A stretch of 64,000 nucleotides of DNA from Pseudomonadota bacterium (GTDB taxonomy: Bacteria > Pseudomonadota > Alphaproteobacteria > Rhizobiales > Hyphomicrobiaceae): the NCBI GenBank assembly GCA_018242215.1, contig JAFECG010000019.1:547994-611993 (forward strand), read 5' to 3'. The position numbers were made by a program, and so were the translations under genes. The notes below the pieces were generated by a model, which ran no database searches, was not told the origin of the DNA, and saw only the letters and a list, made by a program, of their open reading frames with translations. Below are positions 1 through 10,481 of this stretch, in pieces (positions within the stretch are counted from its first letter, which is position 1; each line of letters starts with the position of its first letter).

Positions 1-411
1 GGACGCAAGCGCCAGCACAAGCGCGCGGTCTCGCTTCGTGACGGGCGCCAAATGGCTTTTGAAGTCCATCGACGGCGAGATGTCGGGCCAGAGGTAGAGC
101 GTGTGCGCGGCTTCCCATTCGCGCTCGCGCACGAAGAGATGATCGGAACTCGCGGATCGGCGCCAATCGACGAGGCTCGCGTTCTCGCCGGACTGATATT
201 GGCGGAATTGCCAGAATGTTTCGCCGGGGCCGGCGCGGCGGCGTCCGTGAATGCCCTGCGCGACGGTCGAGGCGATGCGCGCCGCTTCCATCAGCAATTC
301 CGGCATCCGGTCGACGAGGGTGACGGCTTCGCGCTCAAGCGCGAGAACGCGCCGGCTCTCGGCGTTCGGGCCTTCGCTTCCGCTGTTTCTCCGCCCAAGT
401 GGGCTCGCCAT
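1..411 (-). CDS. DUF58 domain protein (5' part only; gene runs off the left edge)
   Basis: Hand translation of the minus strand from the ATG at complement 409-411 gives MASPLGRRNSGSEG...AQGIHGRRRAGPGETFWQFRQYQSGENASLVDWRRSASSDHLFVREREWEAAHTLYLWPDISPSMDF. The G-x-G-E-x-F...R-x-Y...D-W-R pattern is the DUF58 signature. The gene starts 8 nt after the MoxR stop, the usual MoxR-DUF58 order. It is absent from the ORF track because it has no stop in the window. Confidence 0.75.
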   Translation of the reverse strand, partial: MASPLGRRNSGSEGPNAESRRVLALEREAVTLVDRMPELLMEAARIASTVAQGIHGRRRAGPGETFWQFRQYQSGENASLVDWRRSASSDHLFVREREWEAAHTLYLWPDISPSMDFKSHLAPVTKRDRALVLALAS

Positions 412-418
412 CCCGCAC

Positions 419-1417
<999 letters not shown>

Positions 1418-1606
1418 AAAGGGGGCCTCGTGCAGCTGCGTATTGCCTGTCCCAGTGGCGAAATTCGCCTTGCAAAACAAAGGCCGAGCGGCTGCATTCC
1501 CGGCGCTGGGATAAGCCTAGACGATCCTGCCCGGCCCTCATAGGGTCAAGTGAATGTTACGTTAGGATGTGGTGCATCTGAAGGCACCTTTTGCAAGCGG
1601 GCGCAA

Positions 1607-2212
1607 ATGCCGACTGAAAAACCGCAAGTTGCTTCTCCGAATGGAAATTCTGACGCACGGCCCTCGGGTTTGGAGGCGCTTTTGCGTGCGGCGTCGGAGG
1701 GCGGCGCCCACGGTGCGAGACCAGTGGAAAAGTGGGATCCGCCCTACTGCGGCGACATCGGCATGGCGATCCGCCGCGACGGGACGTGGACGTATCAGGG
1801 CAGTCCGATCGGGCGCATGGCGCTCGTCAAGCTCTTCGCGTCGATTTTGAGAAAGGACGACGACGGACGAACGTATCTGGTCACGCCTGCCGAGAAGGTG
1901 GATGTGGCCGTCGAGGACGCGCCGTTCCTCGCGGTCGAGATGGCGGTGTCCGGTGAGGGACGCGAGCAGGCGCTGACGTTCCGCACGAATGTCGATGACG
2001 TGGTGACGGCCGGCCCCGAGCATCCGTTGCGGTTCGAGGTGAGTGGGCCTGACGGCGGGTTGAAGCCGTATGTGTTGGTGCGCGGGCGCTTGGAGGCGCT
2101 GGCGACGCGGGCGGTTTATGCGGAGTTGGTGGAGTTGGCGGAGGCGGGTGGCGACGGCGCGGGCGATGATGTGGGCGTGTGGAGCGGCGGCGTGTGGTGG
2201 GGGTTGGAATAA
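1607..2212 (+). CDS. DUF1285 domain protein
   Basis: Track ORF 1550..2212, with the start moved to ATG 1607 (MPTEKPQ...). The core WDPPYCGDIGMAIRRDGTWTYQGSPIGRMALVKLFASILRKDDDGRTYLVTP is what I recognise as DUF1285, which is often near MoxR in alphaproteobacteria. The family assignment is from memory. Confidence 0.7.
   Translation: MPTEKPQVASPNGNSDARPSGLEALLRAASEGGAHGARPVEKWDPPYCGDIGMAIRRDGTWTYQGSPIGRMALVKLFASILRKDDDGRTYLVTPAEKVDVAVEDAPFLAVEMAVSGEGREQALTFRTNVDDVVTAGPEHPLRFEVSGPDGGLKPYVLVRGRLEALATRAVYAELVELAEAGGDGAGDDVGVWSGGVWWGLE
2147..2203 (+). repeat. Copy A of a 57-nt direct repeat (native 3' end of the DUF1285 CDS, encodes GGDGAGDDVGVWSGGVWWG)
   Basis: Hand alignment with 2809-2865 gives 46 of the first 56 positions identical. 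Eight of the 10 differences fall on third codon positions of the DUF1285 frame. Confidence 0.85.
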
Positions 2213-2257
2213 GAGCGCCACTCTCCATTCGCGACGCTTTCGTCGACGCCGCGGCGT

Positions 2258-2745
2258 TTACAAACGAACCTTCGCATTCTGATTGCGGTCGATCTCGGGC
2301 CGCTCGCCCTTAACGTACGCCGCTGCGGCCCGAAAGGCATATTTTACGGCTTGTGTCCCGCTCGTATCCCAGAACTCCGCGTCGGTCGGATCGACGCGAA
2401 TGAGCCCCAGATTGGGATCATCTTTGCCATCAGGGAACCACACGCGCCACGCTTCCGACCAGAGCTTGTCGATCAGCGCCCGATCGCGAACGAGCTGTGC
2501 GCGCCCATTGAAACTGACGAATTTGTGTCCGCTCTGAAACGTCGCCATGACGGCGGATCGGCTTCGATCTCACGAGCCTTGGGCGAATCCAGGCTCGTGG
2601 GGAAATAGAGATCGCCGCTGTCTTGGACGGACGCCAACGCCATCGGGCGGCCGTGCAATTGGCCTTCGGGCCGCGTAATCAGAATTCCGGTATCGAAGCT
2701 CTTGATGAGCTCCAACACATGTTTTTGCGGGTCTTCGGATGTCAC
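2258..2745 (-). pseudogene. PNPOx-like / general stress protein 26 family gene, split by a frameshift
   Basis: The N-terminal half sits in one frame, starting at GTG complement 2743-2745: VTSEDPQKHVLELIKSFDTGILITRPEGQLHGRPMALASVQDSGDLYFPTSLDSPKAREIEADP. The C-terminal half sits in another frame (track ORF 2258..2548): MATFQSGHKFVSFNGRAQLVRDRALIDKLWSEAWRVWFPDGKDDPNLGLIRVDPTDAEFWD. Together they give a normal ~160-aa pyridoxamine-5'-phosphate-oxidase-like protein. The frames switch at about 2548-2556 (gatccgccgtcatg on the minus strand). Confidence 0.7.
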
Positions 2746-2808
2746 GGCTTCAGCTCCGCTGTTGGGTAAAATGCCAACGCGCGCGGCCAACGCGGGGTTC
2801 CGGTGGGC

Positions 2809-2865
2809 GGTGGTGATGGTGCGGGCGATGAGGTTGGGGTGTGGAGTGGCGGGACGTGGTGGGGT
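2809..2865 (+). repeat. Copy B of the 57-nt repeat: orphan fragment of a DUF1285 3' end (would encode GGDGAGDEVGVWSGGTWWG)
   Basis: See copy A. No DUF1285-like sequence precedes it, because an in-frame stop lies at 2767-2769. It has no stop where the gene ends in copy A. It lies 55 nt from the stop of the retron RT. Confidence 0.8.
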
Positions 2866-2920
2866 GATCTCGACTATGAAACGTTTGGCCCTTCCCTGCG
2901 ACTTCAGAGAGTCGCTTATA

Positions 2921-4633
2921 TTAGTTTTTCCTGTAATCGGCGATCGCCCCCTCAATTAGAGAGAATAAGCTATCAAATCCTCCAAAATCGATCTCGCCAG
3001 CGTGCGTTTCAACCACTTTCTTTGCGAACGCAACTTTCCCAAGCGAAGTGTGGTCCCCGTGCTTTTTGGATGGATCGAATATTTTTCCATCGACCGAAAA
3101 TTTAAGCCACTTCTCCGGAAATAATTCCTCAATACTCTTTGGACTTTTGCTTCCGCCGTGAGGAACTTTTACCAGATAAAGATTATCGCCAAGATGGTGC
3201 CAGCAATCATTCGATTCTATCGATATTTCGATGTCCTTCTTAAGCGTGGCTTTCGCAGCGTCTTTCGCAACCTTGAATATAGACTTTTTGCTTCCATCAT
3301 CGTTGTCGATCAATATTATGATAGGAAAAGCAGAGGGGCGGCCAAATGCGGAAATCTCCTTTGCATATGTCGCGACTAGTTTTCCGATTCCTCCACATCC
3401 GTCGCCGAGTCCCAAAACCTCTTTAACAGTTTTTGAGTTTTTCAGAAATCGTATCTGTAGCGTTTTGTCGAATAGCAACGGAAATTTCTTCTTGGAATGC
3501 CGAATAGCTGTACGAAGATAAATTATATCGGAGGCACCCTCCGTAATAATTAATGGCCTCTCCTGCGCGAAAAAATTCTTATAAAAGAGAAATTTCTTAT
3601 ACAGACGTAACGTTCCGGGAGGTGGGTCGAACTTTCTCGATTTCTTCTGCTGATCCGTGAGATCAACGCGCGTTTTTACTGCATGGATATGACATAATTT
3701 GCCTTCCAAAATATCGAGATTCTTAATTAGCTTGGGCGCTTCACCCTCTTTCGTGTTCTGGAGAAAATATGCGTCTTTTTTAAATAGGTGATTGCACATA
3801 GCACGCGTTTGTCTGCAATATTCTTCCTTTATATTCACCTTTTTGTTGACGACCAAGCCAGTTGCGAGTTGTCGAGAACCGACGATCTGCATCCGCGTTT
3901 TTTGAGGGTTTATTTCAAAGCCCGCCTGCTTAATCAGGCCTTCGAGCTTCGTGGACACTGACCATTTACCTGGGTCTTGGGCGTCGCGAATTGCAATTGA
4001 AGATGGGAATTCTCGCTCGTTTGTGGAAAACGTCATGTCGTCGGCATATCGCGTATATCTACATTTGGATTCTTTGGCCAACTTGAGCATTTTCACGTCT
4101 AGGATATGCCCAATGAGATTCGATATGACGGGAGAACACGGGCTGCCTTGAGGCAGGGAGTTTTCCCAGCAGGCAATTTGGGCTATTGCGGTGCAAATTT
4201 CTTTATCGAGCAGGAATTCTCGGTCTTTGTTAAAAAATCCTCTGACTCGACCAAAATTAATCGAATCGAAGAAATCTTTGACATCCACATTGAAGACGTA
4301 TCTTCTATTTTTATGTCGGTCGGCGTTGGTTATTATAGATCGGCCCGGCTGAAATCCGTGCGTTACTTTTTTCCTGTTAGGCTGCGCGTTTTCAATTTCT
4401 TTTGTGCATTCATAGAGTTTCGACGCAAGTCGCCTTTGGACTAATTTAATATGCGAATTAGGCGCGGATATTTCACGATGACCACCCGATCTCTTCGGAA
4501 TTTGAAATTTATGATATTTTGCTTCCTGCGGAATTACAAACAATGCGTACGTAAGTCCTGAGGGAGTAACGCCTAGAATTTTCGCAAGATCGGACCGAGT
4601 TCTTGCATTCTTCAATTTTTGAAGTGTGGACAT
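2921..4633 (-). CDS. Retron-type reverse transcriptase fused to a C-terminal TOPRIM domain (Ec67 / Retron-Eco2-like)
   Basis: Track ORF 2921..4735. RT motifs are in order: IPKRSGGHREISAP; HGFQPGRSIITNADRH (retron NAxxH); VFNVDVKDFFDSI; LPQGSPCSPVISNL; RYADDMTFS (YADD); GFEINPQKT; RQLATGLVVN (variant of the retron VTG motif). The C-terminal ~230 aa carry a TOPRIM-like E...DxD pair: PLIITEGASDIIYL and IIILIDNDDG. The N-terminus DLAKILGV...YHKFQIPKRSGG is typical of retron RTs. I moved the start to the ATG at complement 4631-4633 (MSTLQKLKN...), because the upstream 34 codons overlap the structured RNA candidate. The region is strongly AT-rich compared with its surroundings. Confidence 0.9.
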   Translation of the reverse strand: MSTLQKLKNARTRSDLAKILGVTPSGLTYALFVIPQEAKYHKFQIPKRSGGHREISAPNSHIKLVQRRLASKLYECTKEIENAQPNRKKVTHGFQPGRSIITNADRHKNRRYVFNVDVKDFFDSINFGRVRGFFNKDREFLLDKEICTAIAQIACWENSLPQGSPCSPVISNLIGHILDVKMLKLAKESKCRYTRYADDMTFSTNEREFPSSIAIRDAQDPGKWSVSTKLEGLIKQAGFEINPQKTRMQIVGSRQLATGLVVNKKVNIKEEYCRQTRAMCNHLFKKDAYFLQNTKEGEAPKLIKNLDILEGKLCHIHAVKTRVDLTDQQKKSRKFDPPPGTLRLYKKFLFYKNFFAQERPLIITEGASDIIYLRTAIRHSKKKFPLLFDKTLQIRFLKNSKTVKEVLGLGDGCGGIGKLVATYAKEISAFGRPSAFPIIILIDNDDGSKKSIFKVAKDAAKATLKKDIEISIESNDCWHHLGDNLYLVKVPHGGSKSPKSIEELFPEKWLKFSVDGKIFDPSKKHGDHTSLGKVAFAKKVVETHAGEIDFGGFDSLFSLIEGAIADYRKN

Positions 4634-4652
4634 TTTGGAAACCCAAAAAGAG

Positions 4653-4773
4653 AAGCTTGTGAGCACTCCTCTGCGTGAGGTTGCGAGCGATAAAGAGTTG
4701 TAGCGTAGAGGCAGTACTCTGGACATTTCTGTCATAGATCGCGAAACGCGATCATAAATCTGCTCACAAGCTT
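4653..4773 (-). ncRNA. Candidate retron msr-msd non-coding RNA
   Basis: On the minus strand, AAGCTTGTGAGCA (complement of 4761-4773) and its exact reverse complement TGCTCACAAGCTT (complement of 4653-4665) bracket 95 nt and end 19 nt before the RT ATG. This is the a1/a2 arrangement of retrons. A G follows the 5' repeat immediately (complement of 4760). Two hairpins follow: GATCGCG-TTT-CGCGATC and GACA-GAAA-TGTC. The 3' part shows only short pairings (CCTCT.../...AGAGG). The ends and the branching G are not established. Confidence 0.55.
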
Positions 4774-4801
4774 GCCCCGATTTTGAGCCTGATTCTTCTT
4801 A

Positions 4802-4830
4802 TGCCGCAACTCGGCGGCACGTTTTCGTTT
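4802..4830 (+). terminator. Terminator-like hairpin plus T-run at the GC/AT transition right of the retron
   Basis: The stem is tgccgc(4802-4807), loop aactcg, gcggca(4814-4819), followed by cgttttcgttt. It is oriented for the plus strand, where no gene ends here, so its function is unclear. Confidence 0.3.
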
Positions 4831-5080
4831 CAGCCAGAAAAAACTTATCCCCGCTCTGAAAACCTCCCGCATACTTCCTCGCATCCCGCCGCGACTTGCA
4901 AGGGCGCGAAACTCGAGCATGGGGTTTTGCTTGCGGATGGGAGCGTGCCGGGCCGCCAGCGATATCGGCGCGCCTGGGGATTCCTGCCGGCCGCGAGAGG
5001 TCCTCCAAGACAGGTGAGGTGCCGCGGTTCAACTCCCGCTCCAACGCGAGATGCACGGGAGGATGGTGGGTTCACGGCTC

Positions 5081-5102
5081 GAAAGAACGCCTGCGTTCTT
5101 TC
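5081..5102. terminator. Perfect palindromic hairpin (possible bidirectional terminator)
   Basis: The sequence gaaagaacgc-ct-gcgttctttc forms a 9-10 bp stem with A-rich and T-rich arms, so it reads as hairpin plus U-rich arm on either strand. It lies in the non-coding stretch downstream of the 5378 membrane-protein gene. Confidence 0.35.
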
Positions 5103-5268
5103 AGGTTGCGAGTGCCCGGGAATGCCGGTTCGGCCGCCGCCCGGAGCATGAACAAGACTTGGCACTGTCACGGGGCGGCGAAGGCTGCATCCGAAATTGA
5201 AAATGACAAGAGCGAGAGGCCCCGCCGTCCCGTCCCTTGTTTGTTGGCGCCTCCGACTCTGCTCCGCA

Positions 5269-5358
5269 GAGCCGGCCGTCGGCGCACGGATGTTTGAGCC
5301 GGCCGCCGATCAGTTTTTCGTTTGCGATCGGCGACTCGCGTTCCGCGAGCCGGCCGCC
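5269..5358. repeat. Three copies of GAGCCGGCCG(C/T)C interleaved with two hairpins
   Basis: The copies are gagccggccgtc at 5269-5280, gagccggccgcc at 5296-5307 and gagccggccgcc at 5347-5358. The hairpins are gccgccgatc(5302-5311)/gatcggcgac(5326-5335) and ctcgcg(5335-5340)-ttc-cgcgag(5344-5349). Confidence 0.6.
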
Positions 5359-5377
5359 AATCGCGTGGGCCGTTGGG

Positions 5378-5659
5378 TCAGGGATGATCCTGCCGGAAAT
5401 AGGTCTTCGACTTGATGTGCAGGAGCACGATCGGCATCGCCATCAAAAGTGCCGCAAGCACGAACCATCCGATGAGGTTCGTCGTGTCGAGCACGCCCGC
5501 GTCGTTCGCCGCCACGTAGCAGGCCATCCCCATCGGCAGGAACAGGATCACGGCCGTGATCAATCCCGGCGAGAAGCGTCCGCGCATTTTGAAAAACGGC
5601 GCGATGTGAAAGAAGACGGCGTTGATCAGCATCAGCGCCGGGAACGCCAGCGCGATCAC
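5378..5659 (-). CDS. Small integral membrane protein (about 3 TM helices), possibly a truncated gene
   Basis: Track ORF 5378..5752. The hydrophobic product reads IALAFPALMLINAVFFHIAPFF...GLITAVILFLPMGMACYV...LIGWFVLAALLMAMPIVLL. I moved the start to GTG at complement 5657-5659 to avoid a 58-nt overlap with the upstream gene. No family was recognised with confidence. Confidence 0.45.
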   Translation of the reverse strand: MIALAFPALMLINAVFFHIAPFFKMRGRFSPGLITAVILFLPMGMACYVAANDAGVLDTTNLIGWFVLAALLMAMPIVLLHIKSKTYFRQDHP

Positions 5660-5693
5660 GCGACTTCTGCCAGGGCGGATCGATCGCGCGCGG

Positions 5694-6992
5694 CTATTCG
5701 ACGGGAACGGATCGCGGCGCTGCGATGCGGCGCCGGTCGGGATTGCGGCCATTATGTTCGTGATAGGCGCGCCGATAAAGTCCGCAATCGGCGCAGGAGA
5801 GTTTTACGCCGCACTCCACCGCCCAACAGTGAACCTCGTCAATCCTGTCGAGCAGAAGGCGATCGAGGTGCAGATTGCGCGCGGACTTGACGACAACGAC
5901 TTCGCCTTCGACCGCCGTTTCCTTGAGGTGGATCGACAGGTCCCTGAGGCTCGAAAAGCTTCGGAATTTTCCGCTTTCGACGTCGGCGGCCGGGGCGCGT
6001 GCCTTATGGCCCCAAGGGCCGACAAAGCAGACCTCGTCGGCGACCTTCGACGCGGCGGCATAGGTGTCCTTATATTTTTTCGTCGCGTTGCCGGAGTAGT
6101 CGCTGATCTGTCCCATGACGAACCGCTTTTTCGGGGCGGCCATCGCATTCAGTGTTTCGAGCGGAAGATGGAGGCTGTGATAGGGCGCCTTCGCGGTATC
6201 GAGAATCATTCTCGTTCCGTCGGCGAGGGTATGCAGACTCATACGGCCGCGAACCGGTGTGAACGAGGCGATGCGATCTTTCACCATTGCGGGTGGAATG
6301 CCGAGCTCGAGCGCGCAGGTCGCGGCGGCTGCGACCGACAGCCAATTGTATTTGCCGAGAAGCTGCGTGTTGAGGGGCACGGTGAGATCGCCGTGCCTCA
6401 GCGTGAACGAGAGGACGCCGTTCTGGCAAATCGAAATGTTCTCGACGCGGTAATCGCCGCCGCTCGTTCCGAAGGTCACCGCGCGGGCGGCCGTCAATTC
6501 CGACATCGCGCGGACGTGGGGATCGTCGAAATTCAAAATGGCCACGCCGGTATGCGGAAGCCTGGCGACAAACGACGACTTCTCTGTCGCGACGGCGTCG
6601 ATGTTGCGGAAGGCCGTGTAGTGCTCGATGGCCACGAGCGTGACGACGGCAACGTCTGGGCTGATGAGGGCCGCCGATTTCGGCAAATCGCCAGGACGTT
6701 CGGTGCCTTGCTCGATCGCCACGTAGCGATGGTCGCGCCGCAGGGCATTGAGTGTCTTTAGCGCGTCACCGTACATGTTGGTGGCTATTTGCGACAAGAC
6801 CGGGCCGTCGCCGGAAAGAATGTGAGTGAGCAGCGCGGTCGTTGTCGTCTTTCCGCTGCTGCCCGTGACGGCAATTACAGTTGCCGACGTCATCTTGCGC
6901 TTGAGCTTTGCACGAAGCGCGCGCAGTTTCGATTTGATGCGCCTGCGGACGTCCTTTGCTCGCTGCACAGTCTTGCTGATCGCGCCGGTCAC
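5694..6992 (-). CDS. Mur ligase family protein (central plus C-terminal domains only) with a Cys-rich tail
   Basis: Track ORF. The P-loop VIAVTGSSGKTTTTALL sits about 40 aa from the N-terminus, so no Mur N-terminal substrate domain is present. It is preceded by a basic helix, RAKDVRRRIKSKLRALRAKLKRK. The body resembles MurF/Mpl-type ligases. The C-terminal extension is HCWAVECGVKLSCADCGLY. An alternative start is the ATG at 6893 (MTSATVIAV). Confidence 0.7.
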   Translation of the reverse strand: MTGAISKTVQRAKDVRRRIKSKLRALRAKLKRKMTSATVIAVTGSSGKTTTTALLTHILSGDGPVLSQIATNMYGDALKTLNALRRDHRYVAIEQGTERPGDLPKSAALISPDVAVVTLVAIEHYTAFRNIDAVATEKSSFVARLPHTGVAILNFDDPHVRAMSELTAARAVTFGTSGGDYRVENISICQNGVLSFTLRHGDLTVPLNTQLLGKYNWLSVAAAATCALELGIPPAMVKDRIASFTPVRGRMSLHTLADGTRMILDTAKAPYHSLHLPLETLNAMAAPKKRFVMGQISDYSGNATKKYKDTYAAASKVADEVCFVGPWGHKARAPAADVESGKFRSFSSLRDLSIHLKETAVEGEVVVVKSARNLHLDRLLLDRIDEVHCWAVECGVKLSCADCGLYRRAYHEHNGRNPDRRRIAAPRSVPVE

Positions 6993-7129
6993 GTGGGGGC
7001 CCTTCGCAATGATCGATCTCGAATGTCAGCATACGGAAATCATACAGGCTTTGCCGATGCAACAGGGTGCAATTCCCAAAAAAATGCGAACGATCCACAG
7101 GTGCATGGGAAAAGAGGCGCCGGGTTTGG

Positions 7130-7543
7130 CTAACGACTTTTTCGACCCGGTACGACTTCGCCGTCTTCTTTTGTGAAGGGGTCGGGGCCTGCATTCGGCA
7201 AGATCTCGAGGACCGTTTCGGACGGACGGCAGAGACGGGTTCCAAGCGGCGTCACGACGATCGGCCGGTTGATAAGGACGGGATGCTCGAGCATGAACGT
7301 GACAAGATCGTCGTCCGTCCATTTGGGGTTGTCGAGGTCCAGCTCGGCAAAGGGCGTGCCCTTGCGGCGCAGGAGATCCCGCGGCGCGATCTCCATTGCA
7401 CGGATGAGCGTCTTTAATTCGGCCCGCGTCGGCGGCGTCTTCAGATACTCGACGATGCGCGGTTCCTCGCCGGATTGGCGGATCATCGCAAGCGTGTTGC
7501 GGGATGTTCCGCAGCTCGGATTATGATAGATTGTGATCGCCAT
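7130..7543 (-). CDS. arsC: Arsenate reductase, glutaredoxin-coupled (R773 ArsC type)
   Basis: The stretches MAITIYHNPSCGTSRNTLAMIR...HPVLINRPIVVTPLGTRLCRPSETVLEIL are near-collinear with classical ArsC, including the catalytic Cys in HNPSCGTSRN. Confidence 0.85.
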   Translation of the reverse strand: MAITIYHNPSCGTSRNTLAMIRQSGEEPRIVEYLKTPPTRAELKTLIRAMEIAPRDLLRRKGTPFAELDLDNPKWTDDDLVTFMLEHPVLINRPIVVTPLGTRLCRPSETVLEILPNAGPDPFTKEDGEVVPGRKSR

Positions 7544-7567
7544 CGCTGCGGTCTATCTTGCTTGGAC

Positions 7568-7945
7568 TTATTCCCAGAGGCCCAGGTCTTCATACTGGCT
7601 TTTGGGAATTTCCGGTCCAAGCTCGTAATCGAAGGACGTGGCTGTCATCTGGTCCTTGCCGACGCCGCAGGTGAATTTCAATCTGTACCAGCGATGGTTG
7701 GCCCGAACGGCGCCGCCCTTGGCGATCACCGTCTCTCCGTCGAACGTTGCGCGGGAGAGAATGCTCGTTTTGAGGCGGTCGACCTTCTTCAGCTTCTTCG
7801 AGCGGTTGAGGGTGTCGATCCCGCGGAGGATGCAGACCTGATGCGCACGCTCCTCAGGATCAAGCCTCATCAGCGTCTGGTCCATCGAAGCGGCGGCGGC
7901 TGGCGCAGTCATGCCAACAAGAACGAGTAGAGACCAGCGCTTCAT
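7568..7945 (-). CDS. Exported small protein, DUF930-like
   Basis: It has an N-terminal signal peptide, MKRWSLLVLVGMTAPAAAAS. The body with conserved Cys (HQVCILRGID...YRLKFTCG) resembles the Rhizobiales DUF930 family as I recall it. Confidence 0.5.
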   Translation of the reverse strand: MKRWSLLVLVGMTAPAAAASMDQTLMRLDPEERAHQVCILRGIDTLNRSKKLKKVDRLKTSILSRATFDGETVIAKGGAVRANHRWYRLKFTCGVGKDQMTATSFDYELGPEIPKSQYEDLGLWE

Positions 7946-8245
7946 TTCCCCTCCGTCGTCGCGTGGCTATGGCCCGACCGACTTAATGCCCATAGCGGCA
8001 GGCGTCAAAGTCTTGGTGCCGTTCGCAAGCGCACATGATGCGATCCGTCTCACTCGGATCCGAAGGAGCGCCTCACGCGAATAGGAACGGCATGACCGTT
8101 TCGTGTTTTCGGCGTGAGTCGTGGGGCCAGATTCCGATGAACAATTTGTTTGCGGGGCCAGAAAAGTTCTTTCAGATCAATGGTCCGCCGCAAAGGCAAA
8201 ACGACCCTTCTGAACAATTTCGCGTTCCAATGCGTTTGGGCCATC

Positions 8246-9259
8246 ATGGATAAATCGATCGCCGCGATACATCAGGCCGCACTTGCTACCCGCTCCATCC
8301 CCGTCGCCGTACGCTACGCGATAACGGTGCTCCTGGTAGCTCTCACAGTTTTGCTGCAGTACGCATGGGGAGACAACGGAAGCAGCCGCTATCCGTTTCT
8401 GGCCTTTATTCCCGTCGTGTTCCTTTGCGGCACGTTCTTGGATCGAGGGAACGGTTTTTTTGCGACCGTTCTCAGCGCGATCGCATGTGCCTACTTTTTC
8501 CTCGATCCGCGGCAATCGCTCAACCTGCTGCATGGGGAGGACCAAGGTGCCTTCGTTCTGTTTCTCGTTATCGGCTTCACCATTTCCTTCGTTGTCGAGG
8601 CGTTGCACGTCGGCCTTGTTTCCCTTGCCGTCGAACGGGAAAAGGCAAATACGACGCTGAGGGATCGCGATCTGCTTCTCGACGAACTCTCCCACAGGAC
8701 TCGCAATGATTTTGCGAACGTGGTGACGTTGCTGAACCTGCAAGCGCGATCTGCGAATGAGGAGGCGCGCGAGGCTCTCATGTCGGCAGCGGAGCGCGTG
8801 CAAACGATCGCTCGCGTGCACCGGCGGTTGGAACTGCGATATGATCGCGTCGTCGTCGACACGAGGTCATACATCTCGGAGTTATGCGCCGACCTTCGGC
8901 TGTCCCGGCTGGCCATGCGGCCCATTGCGATCGATTGCGACATTGAGAGTCATTCGATCAGCCTGGAGAAGGCCGTTCCGCTGGGACTGATCATCAACGA
9001 GTCCGTCACCAATGCCGCCAAACATGCGTTTCCGGATCAGAGGCAAGGCAATATAAGCGTCACTTTTCGGCGCGAGGGCCAAACGTATAAACTCGTCATA
9101 TCCGATGACGGCATCGGTGGCGGCAACGTTTCGAACGGCGGCATTGGCAATCGCCTAATGGGGATGCTCGCGGCGCAACTCGGATCGACGCTTGAGATCG
9201 TGCAACAGCCTGCGGGATTGGCCGTTGCCGTGGATATTCCCGTGAAGACTGAAAAATAA
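8246..9259 (+). CDS. Membrane sensor histidine kinase (HisKA_2/HWE type)
   Basis: Track ORF 8150..9259, with the start moved to ATG 8246. It has four N-terminal TM helices (KdpD/DUF4118-like). The H-box is LSHRTRNDFANVV and the ATPase region is LIINESVTNAAKHAF...ISDDGIG. No response regulator is adjacent. Confidence 0.8.
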   Translation: MDKSIAAIHQAALATRSIPVAVRYAITVLLVALTVLLQYAWGDNGSSRYPFLAFIPVVFLCGTFLDRGNGFFATVLSAIACAYFFLDPRQSLNLLHGEDQGAFVLFLVIGFTISFVVEALHVGLVSLAVEREKANTTLRDRDLLLDELSHRTRNDFANVVTLLNLQARSANEEAREALMSAAERVQTIARVHRRLELRYDRVVVDTRSYISELCADLRLSRLAMRPIAIDCDIESHSISLEKAVPLGLIINESVTNAAKHAFPDQRQGNISVTFRREGQTYKLVISDDGIGGGNVSNGGIGNRLMGMLAAQLGSTLEIVQQPAGLAVAVDIPVKTEK

Positions 9260-9319
9260 TCTCCCGTATGCCCGCCTGCCGCCAGCCCTTGCGAAAAGGC
9301 GCGCGTCTTAAAATACTAA

Positions 9320-9607
9320 CTAATGAACCTTCAACTCCGAGCCGATCAGCCTGAGTTCGCGCGGACGGATCAATTTCGAATGGGCCACCGTGACGCGATA
9401 AAGCTTTCCCTCAAGCTTTGCAGTCCAGAAATCGAGGAAGGATTTGAGCTTCGGAAAACGCGGCGCGGAATCGTATTCCTGCCAAATATAACTCTGAAGA
9501 AGTGACGGATGGTCCGGAAGACGATAGAGGATTTCGGCGGTCGTCAGGCTGAAGCCGGCCAGCTGAGCCTTAAAACCGTTATCGCAAGACATTTCCCGTT
9601 CGGTCAC
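9320..9607 (-). CDS. Usg family protein
   Basis: The 95-aa product LTTAEILYRLPDHPSLLQSYIWQEYDSAPRFPKLKSFLDFW matches my memory of the alphaproteobacterial Usg-like family. Confidence 0.65.
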   Translation of the reverse strand: MTEREMSCDNGFKAQLAGFSLTTAEILYRLPDHPSLLQSYIWQEYDSAPRFPKLKSFLDFWTAKLEGKLYRVTVAHSKLIRPRELRLIGSELKVH

Positions 9608-9833
9608 GTAGCAATCTCCCTTTGAATTAGGTGATTGGGCGCCCTCCCTGAAATGACGATGATCCAGCGAGAATCGTTCCTTGTCTACGGAGAAGATTGG
9701 CGGAATCTGATTGTTAGCACGCTGATCTGCCGAGTGCTTACGGTCTTCGCTGCAGCGCTAAGCATTGCGCCGAATGGATGTGCACAAATCCGTCTCGCGA
9801 GAATGCCTAGCGCGCCTCGTGGAGTGCAAGGCC

Positions 9834-10481
9834 ATGCTTGAGGTGGTGCTCAAGAGCTTCACGACATTTTTCGCGACGGTCGGGCCGATCGAGGCCGCGG
9901 TCGTCTTTACGACGCTCACACCCAAGATGGCGGTTGCCGAGCGCGAGACGATCGCCGTGCGCGCAACGCTGATCGCATCTGCGATTCTTTTGTTTTTTAC
10001 ACTTCTCGGCGGACCGATACTCAATCAGCTCGGCGTCTCGATTGCGGCGCTTCAGACAGCGGGCGGCGTGATCCTTCTGATGATTGCCCTCGATATGATT
10101 TTTGCGCGTCCGGGCAGCTCGGTTAAATTGACAGCGCCGGAGGGCGCGGAAGCGCATTCTCGTGAGGACGTCGCAGTCTTTCCGCTCGCAACGCCGTTGC
10201 TCGCAGGACCCGGCGCAATGAGCGCAGGAATTCTGCTGGCGGCCAACGTAAATGGTCAGCCTCTGGGACTGGTGCTCGTCACGGCGGCCCTTGCTGCAGT
10301 GATGGTGCTGACGCTGATGTTTCTGATTACCGCCAATCAGCTCAATCACATTCTCGGCCTTACGGCGCAGCGTGTTCTGATGCGCGTCTTTGGGATTCTT
10401 CTCGCGGCCATCGCCGTCCAGGCGGTGTTCAATGGGATCAGTGCGTCGGGCCTTATTCCAGCGGCGGCAAAACTATCCTGA
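9834..10481 (+). CDS. MarC family (UPF0056) membrane protein
   Basis: Track ORF 9765..10481, with the start moved to ATG 9834 (MLEVVLKSFTTFFATVGPIE...). It is a multi-TM protein with the MarC-like N-terminus. Confidence 0.7.
   Translation: MLEVVLKSFTTFFATVGPIEAAVVFTTLTPKMAVAERETIAVRATLIASAILLFFTLLGGPILNQLGVSIAALQTAGGVILLMIALDMIFARPGSSVKLTAPEGAEAHSREDVAVFPLATPLLAGPGAMSAGILLAANVNGQPLGLVLVTAALAAVMVLTLMFLITANQLNHILGLTAQRVLMRVFGILLAAIAVQAVFNGISASGLIPAAAKLS

What the first reader, a model, noticed from the sequence alone, without database searches (positions are those of the whole stretch)
2921..4773. Compact retron: RT fused to a TOPRIM nuclease domain (Ec67/Retron-Eco2-like) in an alphaproteobacterial core region
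The 570-aa product carries the full RT motif series, including the two retron-diagnostic elements: NAxxH (ITNADRH) and the VTG-region motif (here ATGLVVN). About 230 extra C-terminal residues carry a TOPRIM-like E...DxD pair (IITEGASD, LIDNDDG). From memory, several blocks line up with the E. coli Ec67 RT: FGRVRG.F, LPQGSPCSP.ISNL, IITEG, D.LFP, IDF. In Ec67 the fused TOPRIM is the effector of an anti-phage retron. This would make the gene a one-protein defence system plus its ncRNA. It is the only clearly foreign gene in the window, so it is the best candidate for a system worth experimental follow-up. The architecture itself is already known, so the novelty lies in the host lineage, the very small islet and the short ncRNA.
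Basis: partly seen in the sequence, partly recalled or inferred. Interest (0 to 1): 0.8.

Follow-up and report, generated by a model that had tools for sequence, protein, structure and literature searches.

The report
Ec67-type single-gene retron, ordinary member
This is an intact one-gene anti-phage retron of the well-studied E. coli Ec67/Eco2 type, with its small RNA gene, in a Hyphomicrobium-like genome; it is a correct call but an ordinary member of a common family that public databases already name.

Summary
A 570-aa minus-strand ORF (2921-4633) encodes a reverse transcriptase fused to a C-terminal TOPRIM nuclease. A 121-nt msr-msd ncRNA gene (4653-4773) lies just upstream. Together they form a 1.9-kb low-GC islet. 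Evidence for the Ec67 family (type I-C1):
- PADLOC RT-Toprim_I-C, E 3e-212.
- NCBIfam retron_Ec67_fus, 681.6 bits against a cut-off of 450.
- Full-length sequence and fold matches to the Retron-Eco2 cryo-EM structures.
- YADD and six Eco2 TOPRIM residues whose alanine substitution abolished Eco2 defence are conserved.
- The ncRNA has the family's a1/a2 stem, the invariant branching G, the msr hairpin and the msd/a2 junction, supported by covariation across 61 loci.

By homology it most likely works as Eco2 does. A roughly 58-nt msDNA cages the nuclease, a phage nuclease degrades the msDNA, and the freed TOPRIM cuts tRNAs.

The novelty claims do not hold:
- NCBI already names the exact protein.
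- At least 580 species genomes, many alphaproteobacterial, carry relatives.
- Solitary 2-kb modules are the norm for this clade.
- The short ncRNA is a sub-clade trait.
- The site is a variable hotspot downstream of a DUF1285 gene, not core DNA.

It is a new member of a known kind, of low interest.

The parts
2921..4633 (-). RT-TOPRIM fusion gene, 570 aa, ATG at 4633 and TAA at 2923-2921. The RT domain covers roughly residues 1-340 and the TOPRIM domain roughly 355-570.
   Evidence: ORF. PADLOC RT-Toprim_I-C, E 3e-212. NCBIfam NF038237, 681.6 bits against cut-off 450. Ec67 PDB chains, E 1.2e-98, residues 2-563. AF2 model with pLDDT 88.5, and Foldseek top hits on Eco2 at E 4e-49.
4313..4327 (-). 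Retron-type NAxxH motif (N103-A-D-R-H107).
   Evidence: Position. N103, A104 and H107 are invariant in 28 family members.
4037..4048 (-). RT active site YADD (residues 196-199), matching Eco2 residues 199-202.
   Evidence: Mapping. The Eco2 active site is described in PMC12916289. Invariant in alignment A1.
3845..3865 (-). VTG-region motif, here ATGLVVN (residues 257-263).
   Evidence: T258, G259, L260 and N263 are invariant; the family consensus is VTGLVVN. The model has low confidence here (residues 252-264), possibly because no RNA is present in the model (inference).
3527..3541 (-). TOPRIM motif IV, EGASD (E365...D369), matching Eco2 E374 and D378.
   Evidence: Mapping. Alanine mutants of these residues abolish Eco2 defence and RNase activity (PMC12405507; PMC12916289). 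EGxxD is the type I-C motif (PMC7736814). Invariant.
3299..3307 (-). TOPRIM motif V, DxD (D443-N-D445), matching Eco2 D460 and D462.
   Evidence: It is DxD, not the DxE that marks subtype I-C2.
3128..3136 (-). Second-metal ligands S500 and E502, matching Eco2 S513 and E515.
   Evidence: E502 is invariant.
4653..4773 (-). Retron ncRNA gene (msr-msd), 121 nt from the first base of a1 to the last base of a2.
   Evidence: Inverted repeat. Fold of -48.6 kcal/mol, z = -4.1. Aligns with 60 homologous upstream regions and with the verified Ec67 ncRNA.
4761..4773 (-). a1 arm, AAGCTTGTGAGCA.
   Evidence: Perfect 13-nt complement of a2. All 11 consensus pairs show compensatory double changes across 61 loci.
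4760..4760 (-). Predicted branching guanosine (ncRNA position 14), equivalent to Ec67 G15.
   Evidence: G in all 61 sequences, within an invariant A-G-A. Aligns to Ec67 G15; G15 is the priming site according to PMC12916289. The 2'-5' branch itself is inferred.
4737..4753 (-). msr hairpin, GATCGC-GTTTC-GCGATC.
   Evidence: RNAalifold helix 2. Five of six pairs have double changes and 94.7% of cells are paired. This helix was not used to select the sequences.
4667..4724 (-). Predicted msd template (ncRNA positions 50-107), giving an msDNA of about 58 nt: 5'-TCCTCTGCGTGAGG...CTCTGGAC-3'.
   Evidence: Limits transferred from Ec67, where termination is at G52:dC67 (PMC12916289), through the alignment. 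The G at the termination column is present in 60 of 61 sequences. This is inference, not measurement.
4653..4665 (-). a2 arm, TGCTCACAAGCTT, ending 20 nt upstream of the RT start codon.
   Evidence: In most relatives a2 ends about 15-29 nt upstream of the RT start.
4780..4809 (-). Putative promoter: TTGCGG (4809-4804), an 18-nt spacer, then CAAAAT (4785-4780). It would start transcription at about the first base of a1.
   Evidence: A TTG at -52..-46 from the branching G occurs in 52 of 61 loci, against a mean of 7.3 in control windows. The generic sigma-70 scan did not call this site, so the evidence is weak and inferred.
2898..2915 (-). Hairpin GCGACTCTCTGAAGTCGC, 6 nt after the stop codon. 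It may be a terminator or stabiliser but has no T-run on the minus strand.
   Evidence: The number of terminator-like hits in the region is not above chance (5 found against 3.4 +/- 2.2 expected).
2865..4836 (.). Extent of the retron-specific, low-GC DNA (about 1.97 kb). It lies between a decayed copy of the DUF1285 3' end (2801-2864) and a segment shared with a related genome (from 4837).
   Evidence: GC profile. Repeat. blastn against Hyphomicrobium relatives.

Best explanation
This is a complete type I-C1 retron of the Ec67/Retron-Eco2 family, carried as a horizontally acquired module of about 1.9 kb in a Hyphomicrobium-like alphaproteobacterium.

Proposed mechanism, taken from Eco2 by homology:
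1. A promoter about 35-50 nt upstream of a1 drives one transcript that carries the ncRNA and the RT-TOPRIM mRNA.
2. The a1 and a2 arms pair. The RT binds the msr hairpin and primes from the 2'-OH of the guanosine at 4760.
3. The RT copies the msd segment up to the G at 4724, producing a branched msDNA of about 58 nt.
4. msDNA and protein assemble into an oligomer in which the DNA blocks the TOPRIM active site.
5. A phage nuclease degrades the msDNA during infection.
6. The freed TOPRIM RNase cuts tRNAs and other RNAs and stops translation, which is an abortive-infection outcome.

What is shown here: gene and ncRNA anatomy, family membership, conserved catalytic residues, and covariation in the RNA.

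What is inferred: msDNA synthesis and length, oligomeric caging, the trigger, the RNA targets, and defence itself.
For: - Family HMMs: PADLOC RT-Toprim_I-C at E 3e-212 with full-length coverage. NCBIfam retron_Ec67_fus at 681.6 bits against a cut-off of 450.
- Ec67 itself scores best on the same two PADLOC models, 02963 and 02966. The motifs are EGxxD plus DxD, as defined for I-C1.
- Sequence match to solved Eco2 chains at E 1.2e-98, 37.9% identity over 552 aligned columns.
- AF2 model (pLDDT 88.5) has its best Foldseek hits on the Eco2 structures 9lm3, 9i2f and 9s1f, at E 4e-49 to 1e-45.
- YADD and the Eco2 TOPRIM residues E374, D378, D460, D462, S513 and E515, whose alanine substitution abolished Eco2 defence, are all conserved. 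All of them except S500 are also invariant in 28 relatives.
- In the great majority of the 76 related loci scanned (61 were aligned), an a1/a2 repeat of mostly 11-14 nt sits at the same offset from the RT start.
- Covariation: 16 of 17 pairs have double changes and 98.1% of cells are paired, against 24-43% when partners are slid. No shuffle out of 500 reaches the observed values.
- The branching G and the GAGT msd/a2 junction are invariant. The window ncRNA aligns to the verified Ec67 ncRNA, with G15 matching G14 and G52 matching G50.
- The Eco2 mechanism comes from PMC12916289 and PMC12405507.
Against: - Nothing functional was measured. msDNA, oligomer, trigger and target are all extrapolated from a protein that is only 38% identical.
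- The predicted msDNA (58 nt) is the shortest of 61 relatives, and its central region is deleted relative to most of them. The three-way-junction cage described for Eco2 may therefore not form in the same way.
- The whole-chain TM-score to Eco2 is only about 0.48 (pTM 0.56). This is probably a difference in domain orientation, but it could be a real difference.
- The catalytic lysine given as 'K562' in one Eco2 paper cannot be mapped, because Ec67 position 562 is Asp in the PDB chains.
- Known Eco2 triggers (T-even DenB, T5 A1) come from coliphages. Hyphomicrobium phages may use others.
- The generic sigma-70 scan found no promoter at the proposed site.
Confidence: 0.8

Rival explanations
1. 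It is a real Ec67-family retron, but its regulation differs from Eco2. The truncated msd would give an msDNA too short or wrongly shaped for the trimeric three-way-junction cage. The complex would then have a different stoichiometry or inhibitory geometry, and possibly a different trigger or RNA target.
For: - The predicted msDNA is 58 nt, against 67 nt in Ec67 and a median of 76 nt in 60 relatives.
- The alignment shows a gap of about 35 columns in the central msd region.
- Identity to Ec67 is only 37.9%.
- msd sequences are hypervariable across the family.
Against: - The two nearest relatives also have short spacers (101 nt), and several others have predicted msDNAs of 61-63 nt. The window is at the end of a continuum, not an outlier.
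- The predicted msDNA still has a self-complementary 9-bp stem.
- All catalytic and ncRNA anchor elements are conserved.
Confidence: 0.12
2. It is a decaying or inactive relic. The gene was acquired horizontally, no longer makes msDNA or defends, and persists only because the insertion is recent.
For: - The adjacent PNPOx-like gene is frameshifted, and the surrounding segment shows rearrangement scars.
- No strong sigma-70 promoter was called.
Against: - The 570-codon ORF is intact, with every catalytic residue conserved.
- The ncRNA keeps a perfect 13-bp a1/a2 stem. The one base in which a1 differs from its nearest relatives is compensated in a2.
- The msr hairpin and the branching G are intact.
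- A family-conserved -35-like TTG is present at the expected offset.
Confidence: 0.05
3. It is not a retron but another class of bacterial reverse transcriptase (group II intron maturase, Abi, or DRT/UG) that happens to carry a C-terminal nuclease.
For: Pfam alone reports only the generic RVT_1 domain.
Against: - Group II intron RT model: 64.1 bits against a cut-off of 300. Drt2: 36.3 against 390. Drt3a: 35.3 against 200.
- Foldseek E-values for group II, Abi-P2 and DRT structures are 1e-8 to 1e-10, against 4e-49 for Eco2.
- No intron RNA domains or any other Rfam family were found in 2000-6000.
- The upstream RNA has retron a1/a2 architecture with covariation.
Confidence: 0.01
4. The low-GC islet does not belong to this genome. 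It would be an assembly or binning chimera in a metagenome-assembled genome.
For: - NCBI labels the source record as a MAG.
- The islet is 17 GC points below its flanks.
Against: - The islet is embedded in one contiguous sequence, with Hyphomicrobium-like DNA on both sides.
- In 39 of 49 related loci, including isolate genomes, the RT gene is more than 5 GC points below its host, so the contrast is a family trait.
- The borders are sharp and the unit is complete.
Confidence: 0.02

Closest known systems
Retron-Eco2 (Ec67), type I-C1 retron of E. coli; PDB 9LM3, 9I2F, 9I2G, 9S1F
   Same: - Single-gene architecture, with an msr-msd ncRNA directly upstream of an RT-TOPRIM fusion on the same strand.
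- Colinear over the full length (residues 2-563 against 5-576).
- YADD, EGxxD, DxD and the S/E second-metal ligands are conserved.
- Both proteins score best on the same PADLOC models.
- The ncRNA shares the ...GGCA|G|A end of a1, the msr hairpin, the AATG termination block and the GGAG|TGCC msd/a2 junction.
   Different: - Only 37.9% amino-acid identity.
- The ncRNA is 121 nt against 132 nt, and the predicted msDNA is about 58 nt against 67 nt, with an unrelated msd sequence.
- The motif reads ATG where the family has VTG.
- The host is a Hyphomicrobium-like alphaproteobacterium, and the retron is a solitary 1.9-kb module in a chromosomal hotspot. The literature describes type I-C retrons as often prophage-borne.
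- Trigger and targets are unknown.
Uncharacterised Ec67-family retrons of Alphaproteobacteria and other phyla (for example Ruegeria atlantica, Paracoccus denitrificans, Rhizobium leguminosarum, Methylobacterium, Sphingobium, Bradyrhizobium)
   Same: - 45-59% identity over the full length.
- The same ncRNA architecture at the same offset.
- The same low-GC, roughly 2-kb solitary module.
- The nearest relatives (P0002, P0003) share the a1 sequence except for one compensated base, and also have short spacers.
   Different: - No relative closer than 56-59% identity was found among 5.8 billion clustered proteins.
- The insertion sites are unrelated.
- The window's msd is 6 nt shorter than in its nearest relatives.
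Type XII (RT-TIR) and type XI (RT-protease) retrons, the sister groups in RT clade 8
   Same: The RT domain is clearly related. PADLOC scores are 355 and 331 bits over the RT part. These types share RT clade 8 with I-C in Mestre et al. 2020.
   Different: The C-terminal effector here is a TOPRIM domain, not a TIR or protease. The NCBIfam RT-TIR model scores 303 bits against a cut-off of 600 and matches only residues 48-356.
TOPRIM nucleases acting in trans: class 2 OLD nucleases, retron Eco8 (I-B2) OLD effector, Gabija GajA, PARIS AriB
   Same: They use a two-metal TOPRIM active site with Glu, DxD and second-metal ligands. The Eco2 TOPRIM is reported as structurally similar to these proteins (PMC12405507).
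   Different: There is no ATPase domain here, and the TOPRIM is fused to the RT. According to Mestre et al., the I-C TOPRIM forms its own lineage. In Eco2 the substrate is RNA, not DNA.

Membership tests
Type I-C1 retron (Ec67/Retron-Eco2 family) | Full-length match to the curated family model, above its cut-off | tested here: met
   NCBIfam NF038237 retron_Ec67_fus scores 681.6 bits against a cut-off of 450, covering profile positions 1-572 of 572. PADLOC RT-Toprim_I-C gives E 3e-212.
Type I-C1 retron (Ec67/Retron-Eco2 family) | Retron-type RT with YADD catalytic site, NAxxH motif and VTG-region motif | tested here: met
   YADD at 196-199, NADRH at 103-107, ATGLVVN at 257-263. The first residue of VTG is A here, while T, G, L and N are invariant in the family.
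Type I-C1 retron (Ec67/Retron-Eco2 family) | TOPRIM domain fused to the RT C-terminus, with motif IV EGxxD and motif V DxD (DxE would indicate I-C2) | tested here: met
   EGASD at 365-369 and DND at 443-445. Definitions from PMC7736814. Ec67 and the window protein rank the six PADLOC I-C models in the same order of model pairs. I-C3 has the same motifs, so the I-C1 assignment over I-C3 rests on that shared model ranking.
Type I-C1 retron (Ec67/Retron-Eco2 family) | Eco2 TOPRIM residues shown by mutagenesis to be required: E374, D378, D460, D462, S513, E515 | tested here: met
   They correspond to E365, D369, D443, D445, S500 and E502, all identical.
Type I-C1 retron (Ec67/Retron-Eco2 family) | Catalytic lysine of the TOPRIM site (reported as 'K562') | tested here: inconclusive
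   Ec67 position 562 is Asp in the PDB chains, so the published number probably refers to the class 2 OLD nuclease. K533 (Ec67 K546) is invariant in the family and is a candidate.
Type I-C1 retron (Ec67/Retron-Eco2 family) | TOPRIM and RT folds as in the solved Eco2 structure | tested here: met
   The AF2 model has pLDDT 88.5, with most of residues 360-570 near or above 90. Foldseek's best hits are 9lm3, 9i2f and 9s1f at E 4e-49 to 1e-45 over about 592 columns. The global TM-score of 0.48 is attributed to domain orientation; that attribution is an inference.
Type I-C1 retron (Ec67/Retron-Eco2 family) | msr-msd ncRNA directly upstream on the same strand, closed by complementary a1/a2 arms | tested here: met
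   A perfect 13-nt repeat, 4761-4773 with 4653-4665. The same feature sits at the same offset in the great majority of the 76 relatives scanned. All 11 pairs show compensatory changes. Caveat: the sequences were selected with a repeat finder.
Type I-C1 retron (Ec67/Retron-Eco2 family) | Conserved branching guanosine at the 3' end of a1, and a conserved msr hairpin | tested here: met
   The G at 4760 is invariant in 61 of 61 sequences and aligns to Ec67 G15. In the msr hairpin, 5 of 6 pairs covary.
Type I-C1 retron (Ec67/Retron-Eco2 family) | Single protein gene, with no separate effector ORF | tested here: met
   The low-GC unit holds only the ncRNA and the RT-TOPRIM gene. The six neighbouring window proteins tested, within about 5 kb, have no PADLOC match.
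Type I-C1 retron (Ec67/Retron-Eco2 family) | Production of branched msDNA (2'-5' linked RNA-DNA) | not testable with these tools
   This needs nucleic-acid preparations. The predicted length of about 58 nt is an inference.
Type I-C1 retron (Ec67/Retron-Eco2 family) | RT- and TOPRIM-dependent anti-phage defence; msDNA-caged oligomer released by a phage nuclease | not testable with these tools
   Shown only for Eco2 (PMC12916289, PMC12405507).
Group II intron reverse transcriptase/maturase | Score above the curated cut-off, and flanking intron RNA domains | tested here: not met
   TIGR04416 scores 64.1 bits against a cut-off of 300. No Rfam intron hit in 2000-6000.
Defence-associated RTs (DRT2, DRT3a) and Abi RTs | Score above the curated cut-off, or closest structural neighbour | tested here: not met
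   Drt2 scores 36.3 against 390 and Drt3a 35.3 against 200. DRT and Abi-P2 structures give E 1e-8 to 1e-9, against 4e-49 for Eco2.
Type XII retron (RT-TIR) | C-terminal TIR domain and a full-length model match | tested here: not met
   NF042941 scores 303 bits against a cut-off of 600, and the match is limited to the RT part, residues 48-356.

The most novel reading that the evidence does not exclude
The window retron and its two nearest relatives may form a sub-clade whose truncated msd yields an msDNA of about 58-64 nt. That may be too short to build the inter-subunit DNA three-way junction that cages the TOPRIM in Eco2. If so, this sub-clade would use a different inhibitory geometry or stoichiometry, and perhaps sense a different phage cue. 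It would also define the smallest natural msDNA scaffold for this single-protein retron.
Probability: 0.12. Interest if true: 0.4.

Novelty: new member of a known kind. Interest (0 to 1): 0.17.

Why it matters
The practical value is modest. The locus is a compact 1.9-kb, single-protein retron from a non-enteric host, with the shortest predicted msDNA among 61 sampled relatives. It could serve as a comparison point for the recently solved Eco2 mechanism, or as a small chassis for retron engineering. It does not open a new question. The family, architecture, structure, trigger logic and effector activity are already described. The protein is already named correctly in NCBI, and relatives occur in at least 580 species genomes.

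The context adds a small ecological note. In Hyphomicrobium genomes, the DNA just downstream of the DUF1285 gene appears to be a swap site for mobile and defence cargo: a retron here, and an AbiE pair plus an IS element in a relative.

Tried and rejected
1. Rfam scans of 2000-6000 at E<=1 and of 4774-5400 at E<=10 found no retron msr family and no credible family. The three weak hits (Mcr7, GNAS-AS1, CC3552) score far below their gathering thresholds. The ncRNA was therefore established by comparison instead.

2. ARAGORN found no tRNA or tmRNA in 1-10000, so there is no tRNA-type att site.

3. The generic sigma-70 and terminator scan gave no promoter upstream of a1, and its terminator count is not above chance. 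A family-specific positional TTG count was used instead.

4. Looking up the contig that encodes the exact protein returned nothing on record. The host was inferred from the flanking DUF1285 orthologs.

5. I considered the longer 604-aa reading from ATG 4735 and rejected it. That start lies inside the msr region, all homologs and profiles begin at MSTLQ, and NCBI's protein is 570 aa.

6. I tested whether the conserved 490-nt segment X (4837-5323) is part of the retron or a structured RNA.
   - It also occurs in L081, where no RT gene was called in the 16.6 kb examined.
   - Its substitutions show no codon periodicity.
   - Its folding z-score is about 0 on both strands.
   - It has no Rfam match.
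   I rejected it as part of the system, and its nature is unresolved.

7. I looked for other defence genes next to the retron. The six window neighbours scanned gave no PADLOC hits.

8. I tried to map the published 'K562' catalytic lysine and could not reconcile the numbering.

9. I did not use the metagenome scan, the representative-protein search or the second structure job, because the verdict did not depend on them.


Full report
**1. Observation**

The minus strand carries an ORF at 2921..4735, which is 604 aa counted from the first ATG. All profile, PDB and homolog alignments begin at about residue 35 of that reading. The identical 570-aa protein is in NCBI.

The gene is 43.3% GC, against about 60% in the flanks. 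It is the only strong GC dip in the 64-kb window.

The arms are 4761-4773 and 4653-4665, with 95 nt between them.

**2. Identity of the protein**

Pfam sees only RVT_1. The specialised libraries are unambiguous:
- PADLOC RT-Toprim_I-C gives E 3e-212 over the whole length.
- NCBIfam NF038237 'retron Ec67 family RNA-directed DNA polymerase/endonuclease' gives 681.6 bits against a curated cut-off of 450.

Competing RT classes fall far below their cut-offs:
- Group II intron RT: 64 bits against 300.
- Drt2: 36 bits against 390.
- Drt3a: 35 bits against 200.
- RT-TIR: 303 bits against 600, covering the RT part only.

The PDB holds four Retron Ec67/Eco2 entries. The window protein aligns to them over residues 2-563 at E 1.2e-98, with 37.9% identity.

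An AlphaFold2 model built on 28 homologs has a mean pLDDT of 88.5. Foldseek ranks matches as follows:
- Eco2 structures 9lm3, 9i2f and 9s1f: E 4e-49 to 1e-45, over about 592 columns.
- Other retron RTs: about 1e-14.
- Group II intron, Abi and DRT RTs: 1e-8 to 1e-10.

The whole-chain TM-score is only about 0.48 and pTM is 0.56. I attribute this to the relative placement of the two domains in a model without nucleic acid. That attribution is an inference.

**3. Active sites**

Two papers define the Eco2 residues that matter: PMC12916289 (Nat Struct Mol Biol 2026) and PMC12405507 (Cell Discov 2025). They are YADD 199-202 and TOPRIM E374, D378, D460, D462, S513 and E515. Alanine substitutions abolish defence and RNase activity.

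Through the HMMER alignment these map to Y196-A-D-D199, E365, D369, D443, D445, S500 and E502, all identical. All except S500 are invariant in a 28-protein family alignment.

Mestre et al. 2020 (PMC7736814) define I-C1 by EGxxD plus DxD and I-C2 by DxE. The window has EGASD and DND. Ec67 itself scores best on the same two PADLOC I-C models as the window protein. I therefore file the protein under I-C1. One caveat applies: I-C3 has the same motifs, so separating I-C1 from I-C3 rests on the model ranking and not on a tree.

One item could not be resolved. The 'catalytic lysine K562' of PMC12405507 is an Asp in the Ec67 PDB numbering, so the number probably belongs to the class 2 OLD nuclease. 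The invariant K533 (Ec67 K546) is a candidate only.

**4. The ncRNA**

Rfam finds nothing here, so I tested the RNA by comparison.

A scan of one genome per species found at least 580 genomes that encode a relative, and 80 loci were fetched. In the great majority of the 76 loci I scanned, and in all 61 I went on to align, a perfect inverted repeat lies at the same offset. The repeat is usually 11-14 nt. The a1 arm sits about 140-170 nt upstream of the RT start, and a2 ends about 20 nt upstream of it. The a1 arm is usually followed by 'GA'.

An alignment of 61 such regions shows these conserved elements, all present in the window:
- An invariant A-G-A directly after a1.
- A conserved msr hairpin.
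- An AATG...AGG block.
- An invariant GAGT at the msd/a2 junction.

RNAalifold and the pair-count controls give the following:
- 16 of 17 pairs have double compensatory changes.
- 98.1% of cells are paired, against 24-43% when the partners are slid by 1-3 columns.
- No shuffle out of 500 reaches the observed values.

The a1/a2 helix was selected with a perfect-repeat finder, so its 100% pairing is partly by construction. The msr hairpin was not selected that way, and 5 of its 6 pairs still covary.

The Ec67 ncRNA sequence I recalled from memory was verified. It matches 14 complete E. coli genomes at 100%, beside genes annotated as the Ec67-family RT. Aligning it to the window maps the Ec67 branching G15 to window 4760. 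It also maps the termination position G52 (PMC12916289) to window 4724.

That predicts an msDNA of about 58 nt, 5'-TCCTCTGCG...CTCTGGAC-3', against 67 nt in Ec67. This is an inference. It is the shortest of the 61 sampled; the others run 61-87 nt with a median of 76.

The two nearest RT relatives, P0002 and P0003 (55-59% identity), share the window's a1 except for one base. That change is compensated in a2. Their spacers are also short, at 101 nt. The short ncRNA is therefore a trait of the sub-clade and not a singular oddity.

A TTG about 47-48 nt upstream of the branching G occurs in 52 of 61 loci, against a mean of 7.3 in control windows. The window has TTGCGG at 4809-4804 and CAAAAT at 4785-4780. 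This would start transcription at about the first base of a1. It is weak, inferred evidence, and the generic sigma-70 scan did not call it.

**5. Context**

The flanking DUF1285 protein has orthologs at 75-93% identity, almost all labelled Hyphomicrobium. The host is therefore a Hyphomicrobium-like alphaproteobacterium.

blastn against three relatives' loci shows the following:
- Synteny at 85-94% identity runs up to the DUF1285 stop codon, at about 2207-2214, and breaks there in all of them.
- With one relative (L082/L083) synteny resumes only at 7374.
- So about 5.2 kb is a variable segment. It holds the PNPOx-like gene, the retron, a non-coding segment X, an HXXEE protein, a Mur-ligase-like protein and ArsC.
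- Each relative fills this segment differently. L081 carries an IS element, a WD40 protein, an AbiEii/DUF6088 pair and an acetyltransferase. L082 carries unrelated genes. L084 differs again.

The phrase 'core region' is therefore wrong.

A decayed 64-nt copy of the DUF1285 3' end (80% identity) lies at 2801-2864, 57 nt from the RT stop codon. L081 also has a second copy of this 3' end. The two sequence types are swapped between the genomes. That is the kind of scar left by recombination at an att-like site.

The retron-specific DNA is thus about 2865-4836, or 1.97 kb.

Among 49 related loci, the RT gene averages 10 GC points below its far flanks. In 24 loci with clear contrast, the low-GC patch has a median length of 2,060 bp, against 1,920 bp here. 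A solitary module of about 2 kb is therefore the norm for this clade.

The nearest relatives sit in unrelated contexts. One is among housekeeping genes and one is in a toxin-antitoxin, ParA and SMODS neighbourhood. The six neighbouring window proteins I scanned have no PADLOC match.

**6. Mechanism**

By homology to Eco2, the most likely mechanism is as follows:
1. The ncRNA folds through a1/a2.
2. The RT primes at the 2'-OH of G4760 and copies msd to about G4724.
3. The branched msDNA and the protein assemble into an oligomer in which the DNA blocks the TOPRIM site.
4. A phage nuclease degrades the msDNA.
5. The freed TOPRIM cuts tRNAs and other RNAs, and translation stops.

What is shown here is anatomy, family membership, catalytic-residue conservation and RNA covariation. 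Everything downstream of that is inferred.

The main open point is whether a 58-nt msDNA, which lacks the central msd segment present in most relatives, can form the same three-way-junction cage.

**7. Novelty and verdict**

- The family was described decades ago.
- Type I-C retrons make up about 11% of all retrons.
- Structure and mechanism were published in 2025-2026.
- NCBI already names this exact protein as an Ec67-family retron RT/endonuclease.
- Alphaproteobacterial relatives are numerous.

I rate it a new member of a known kind, with an interest score of about 0.17.

Noticed in passing
window 2139-2202 and 2801-2864; L081 8490-8603 and 11665-11817: There is a 64-nt direct repeat at 80% identity. 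One copy is the functional 3' end of the DUF1285 gene. The other is a displaced, decayed copy next to the retron. The relative L081 also carries two copies, and the two sequence types are swapped between the genomes: the window's functional end resembles L081's displaced copy, and the reverse also holds. This suggests repeated site-specific integration or exchange at the 3' end of DUF1285.
   Followed up: partly
window 2215-7373: A segment of about 5.2 kb downstream of DUF1285 is variable among Hyphomicrobium genomes. The window has a PNPOx-like gene, the retron, an HXXEE protein, a Mur-ligase-like protein and ArsC. L081 has a DUF772 IS element, a WD40 protein, AbiEii plus DUF6088, an acetyltransferase and PNPOx. 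L082 has a 299-aa protein and a PMT_2 glycosyltransferase. L084 differs again. It looks like a hotspot for mobile and defence cargo.
   Followed up: partly
window 2258-2745 (minus strand): The PNPOx/general-stress-protein-26-like gene is frameshifted near 2548-2555. Residues 1-66 read in one frame and residues 67-160 in another, compared with the intact 162-aa ortholog in L081. It is either a real pseudogene or a MAG assembly error.
   Followed up: yes
window 4837-5323; L081 14546-15026 and 13678-13748: A 490-nt segment just upstream of the retron is 90% identical to a stretch of L081 where no gene is called, which is more conserved than the neighbouring coding genes (81-87%). Its substitutions show no codon periodicity, it has 1-nt and 6-nt indels, and one hairpin (about 5080-5101) carries a compensatory change. 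However, the overall folding z-score is about 0 on both strands and there is no credible Rfam match. Its first 72 nt are duplicated in L081 on either side of an acetyltransferase gene. Its nature is unknown.
   Followed up: partly
L001-L080 (RT genes and flanks): Across 49 related loci from many phyla, the Ec67-family RT gene averages 10 GC points below its host flanks; 39 of 49 are more than 5 points lower. The low-GC patch is usually only about 1.9-2.2 kb long. The retron therefore seems to travel as a bare ncRNA-plus-RT module, with no recognisable mobility gene.
   Followed up: partly
PMC12405507, section on the Toprim domain, compared with PDB chains 9lm3_A and 9i2f_C: The 'catalytic lysine K562' cited for Eco2 corresponds to an Asp in the deposited Ec67 chain numbering. 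The number probably belongs to the class 2 OLD nuclease used for comparison. The family-invariant lysine is Ec67 K546, which is window K533.
   Followed up: partly
L088/L089 (context of P0003, 55% identical RT): This close relative of the retron lies in a neighbourhood with ParE/YafQ-RelB toxin-antitoxin pairs, ParA, an SMODS (CBASS-type) gene, and MC2/CTD6 conflict-system domains. It is probably a plasmid or a defence island.
   Followed up: no
window 4802-4819: A GC-rich hairpin, TGCCGCAACTCGGCGGCA, is followed by a T-rich run on the + strand. It overlaps the proposed -35 element of the retron promoter and lies at the right edge of the low-GC islet. It was called terminator-like, but the number of such calls in the region is not above chance.
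   Followed up: no
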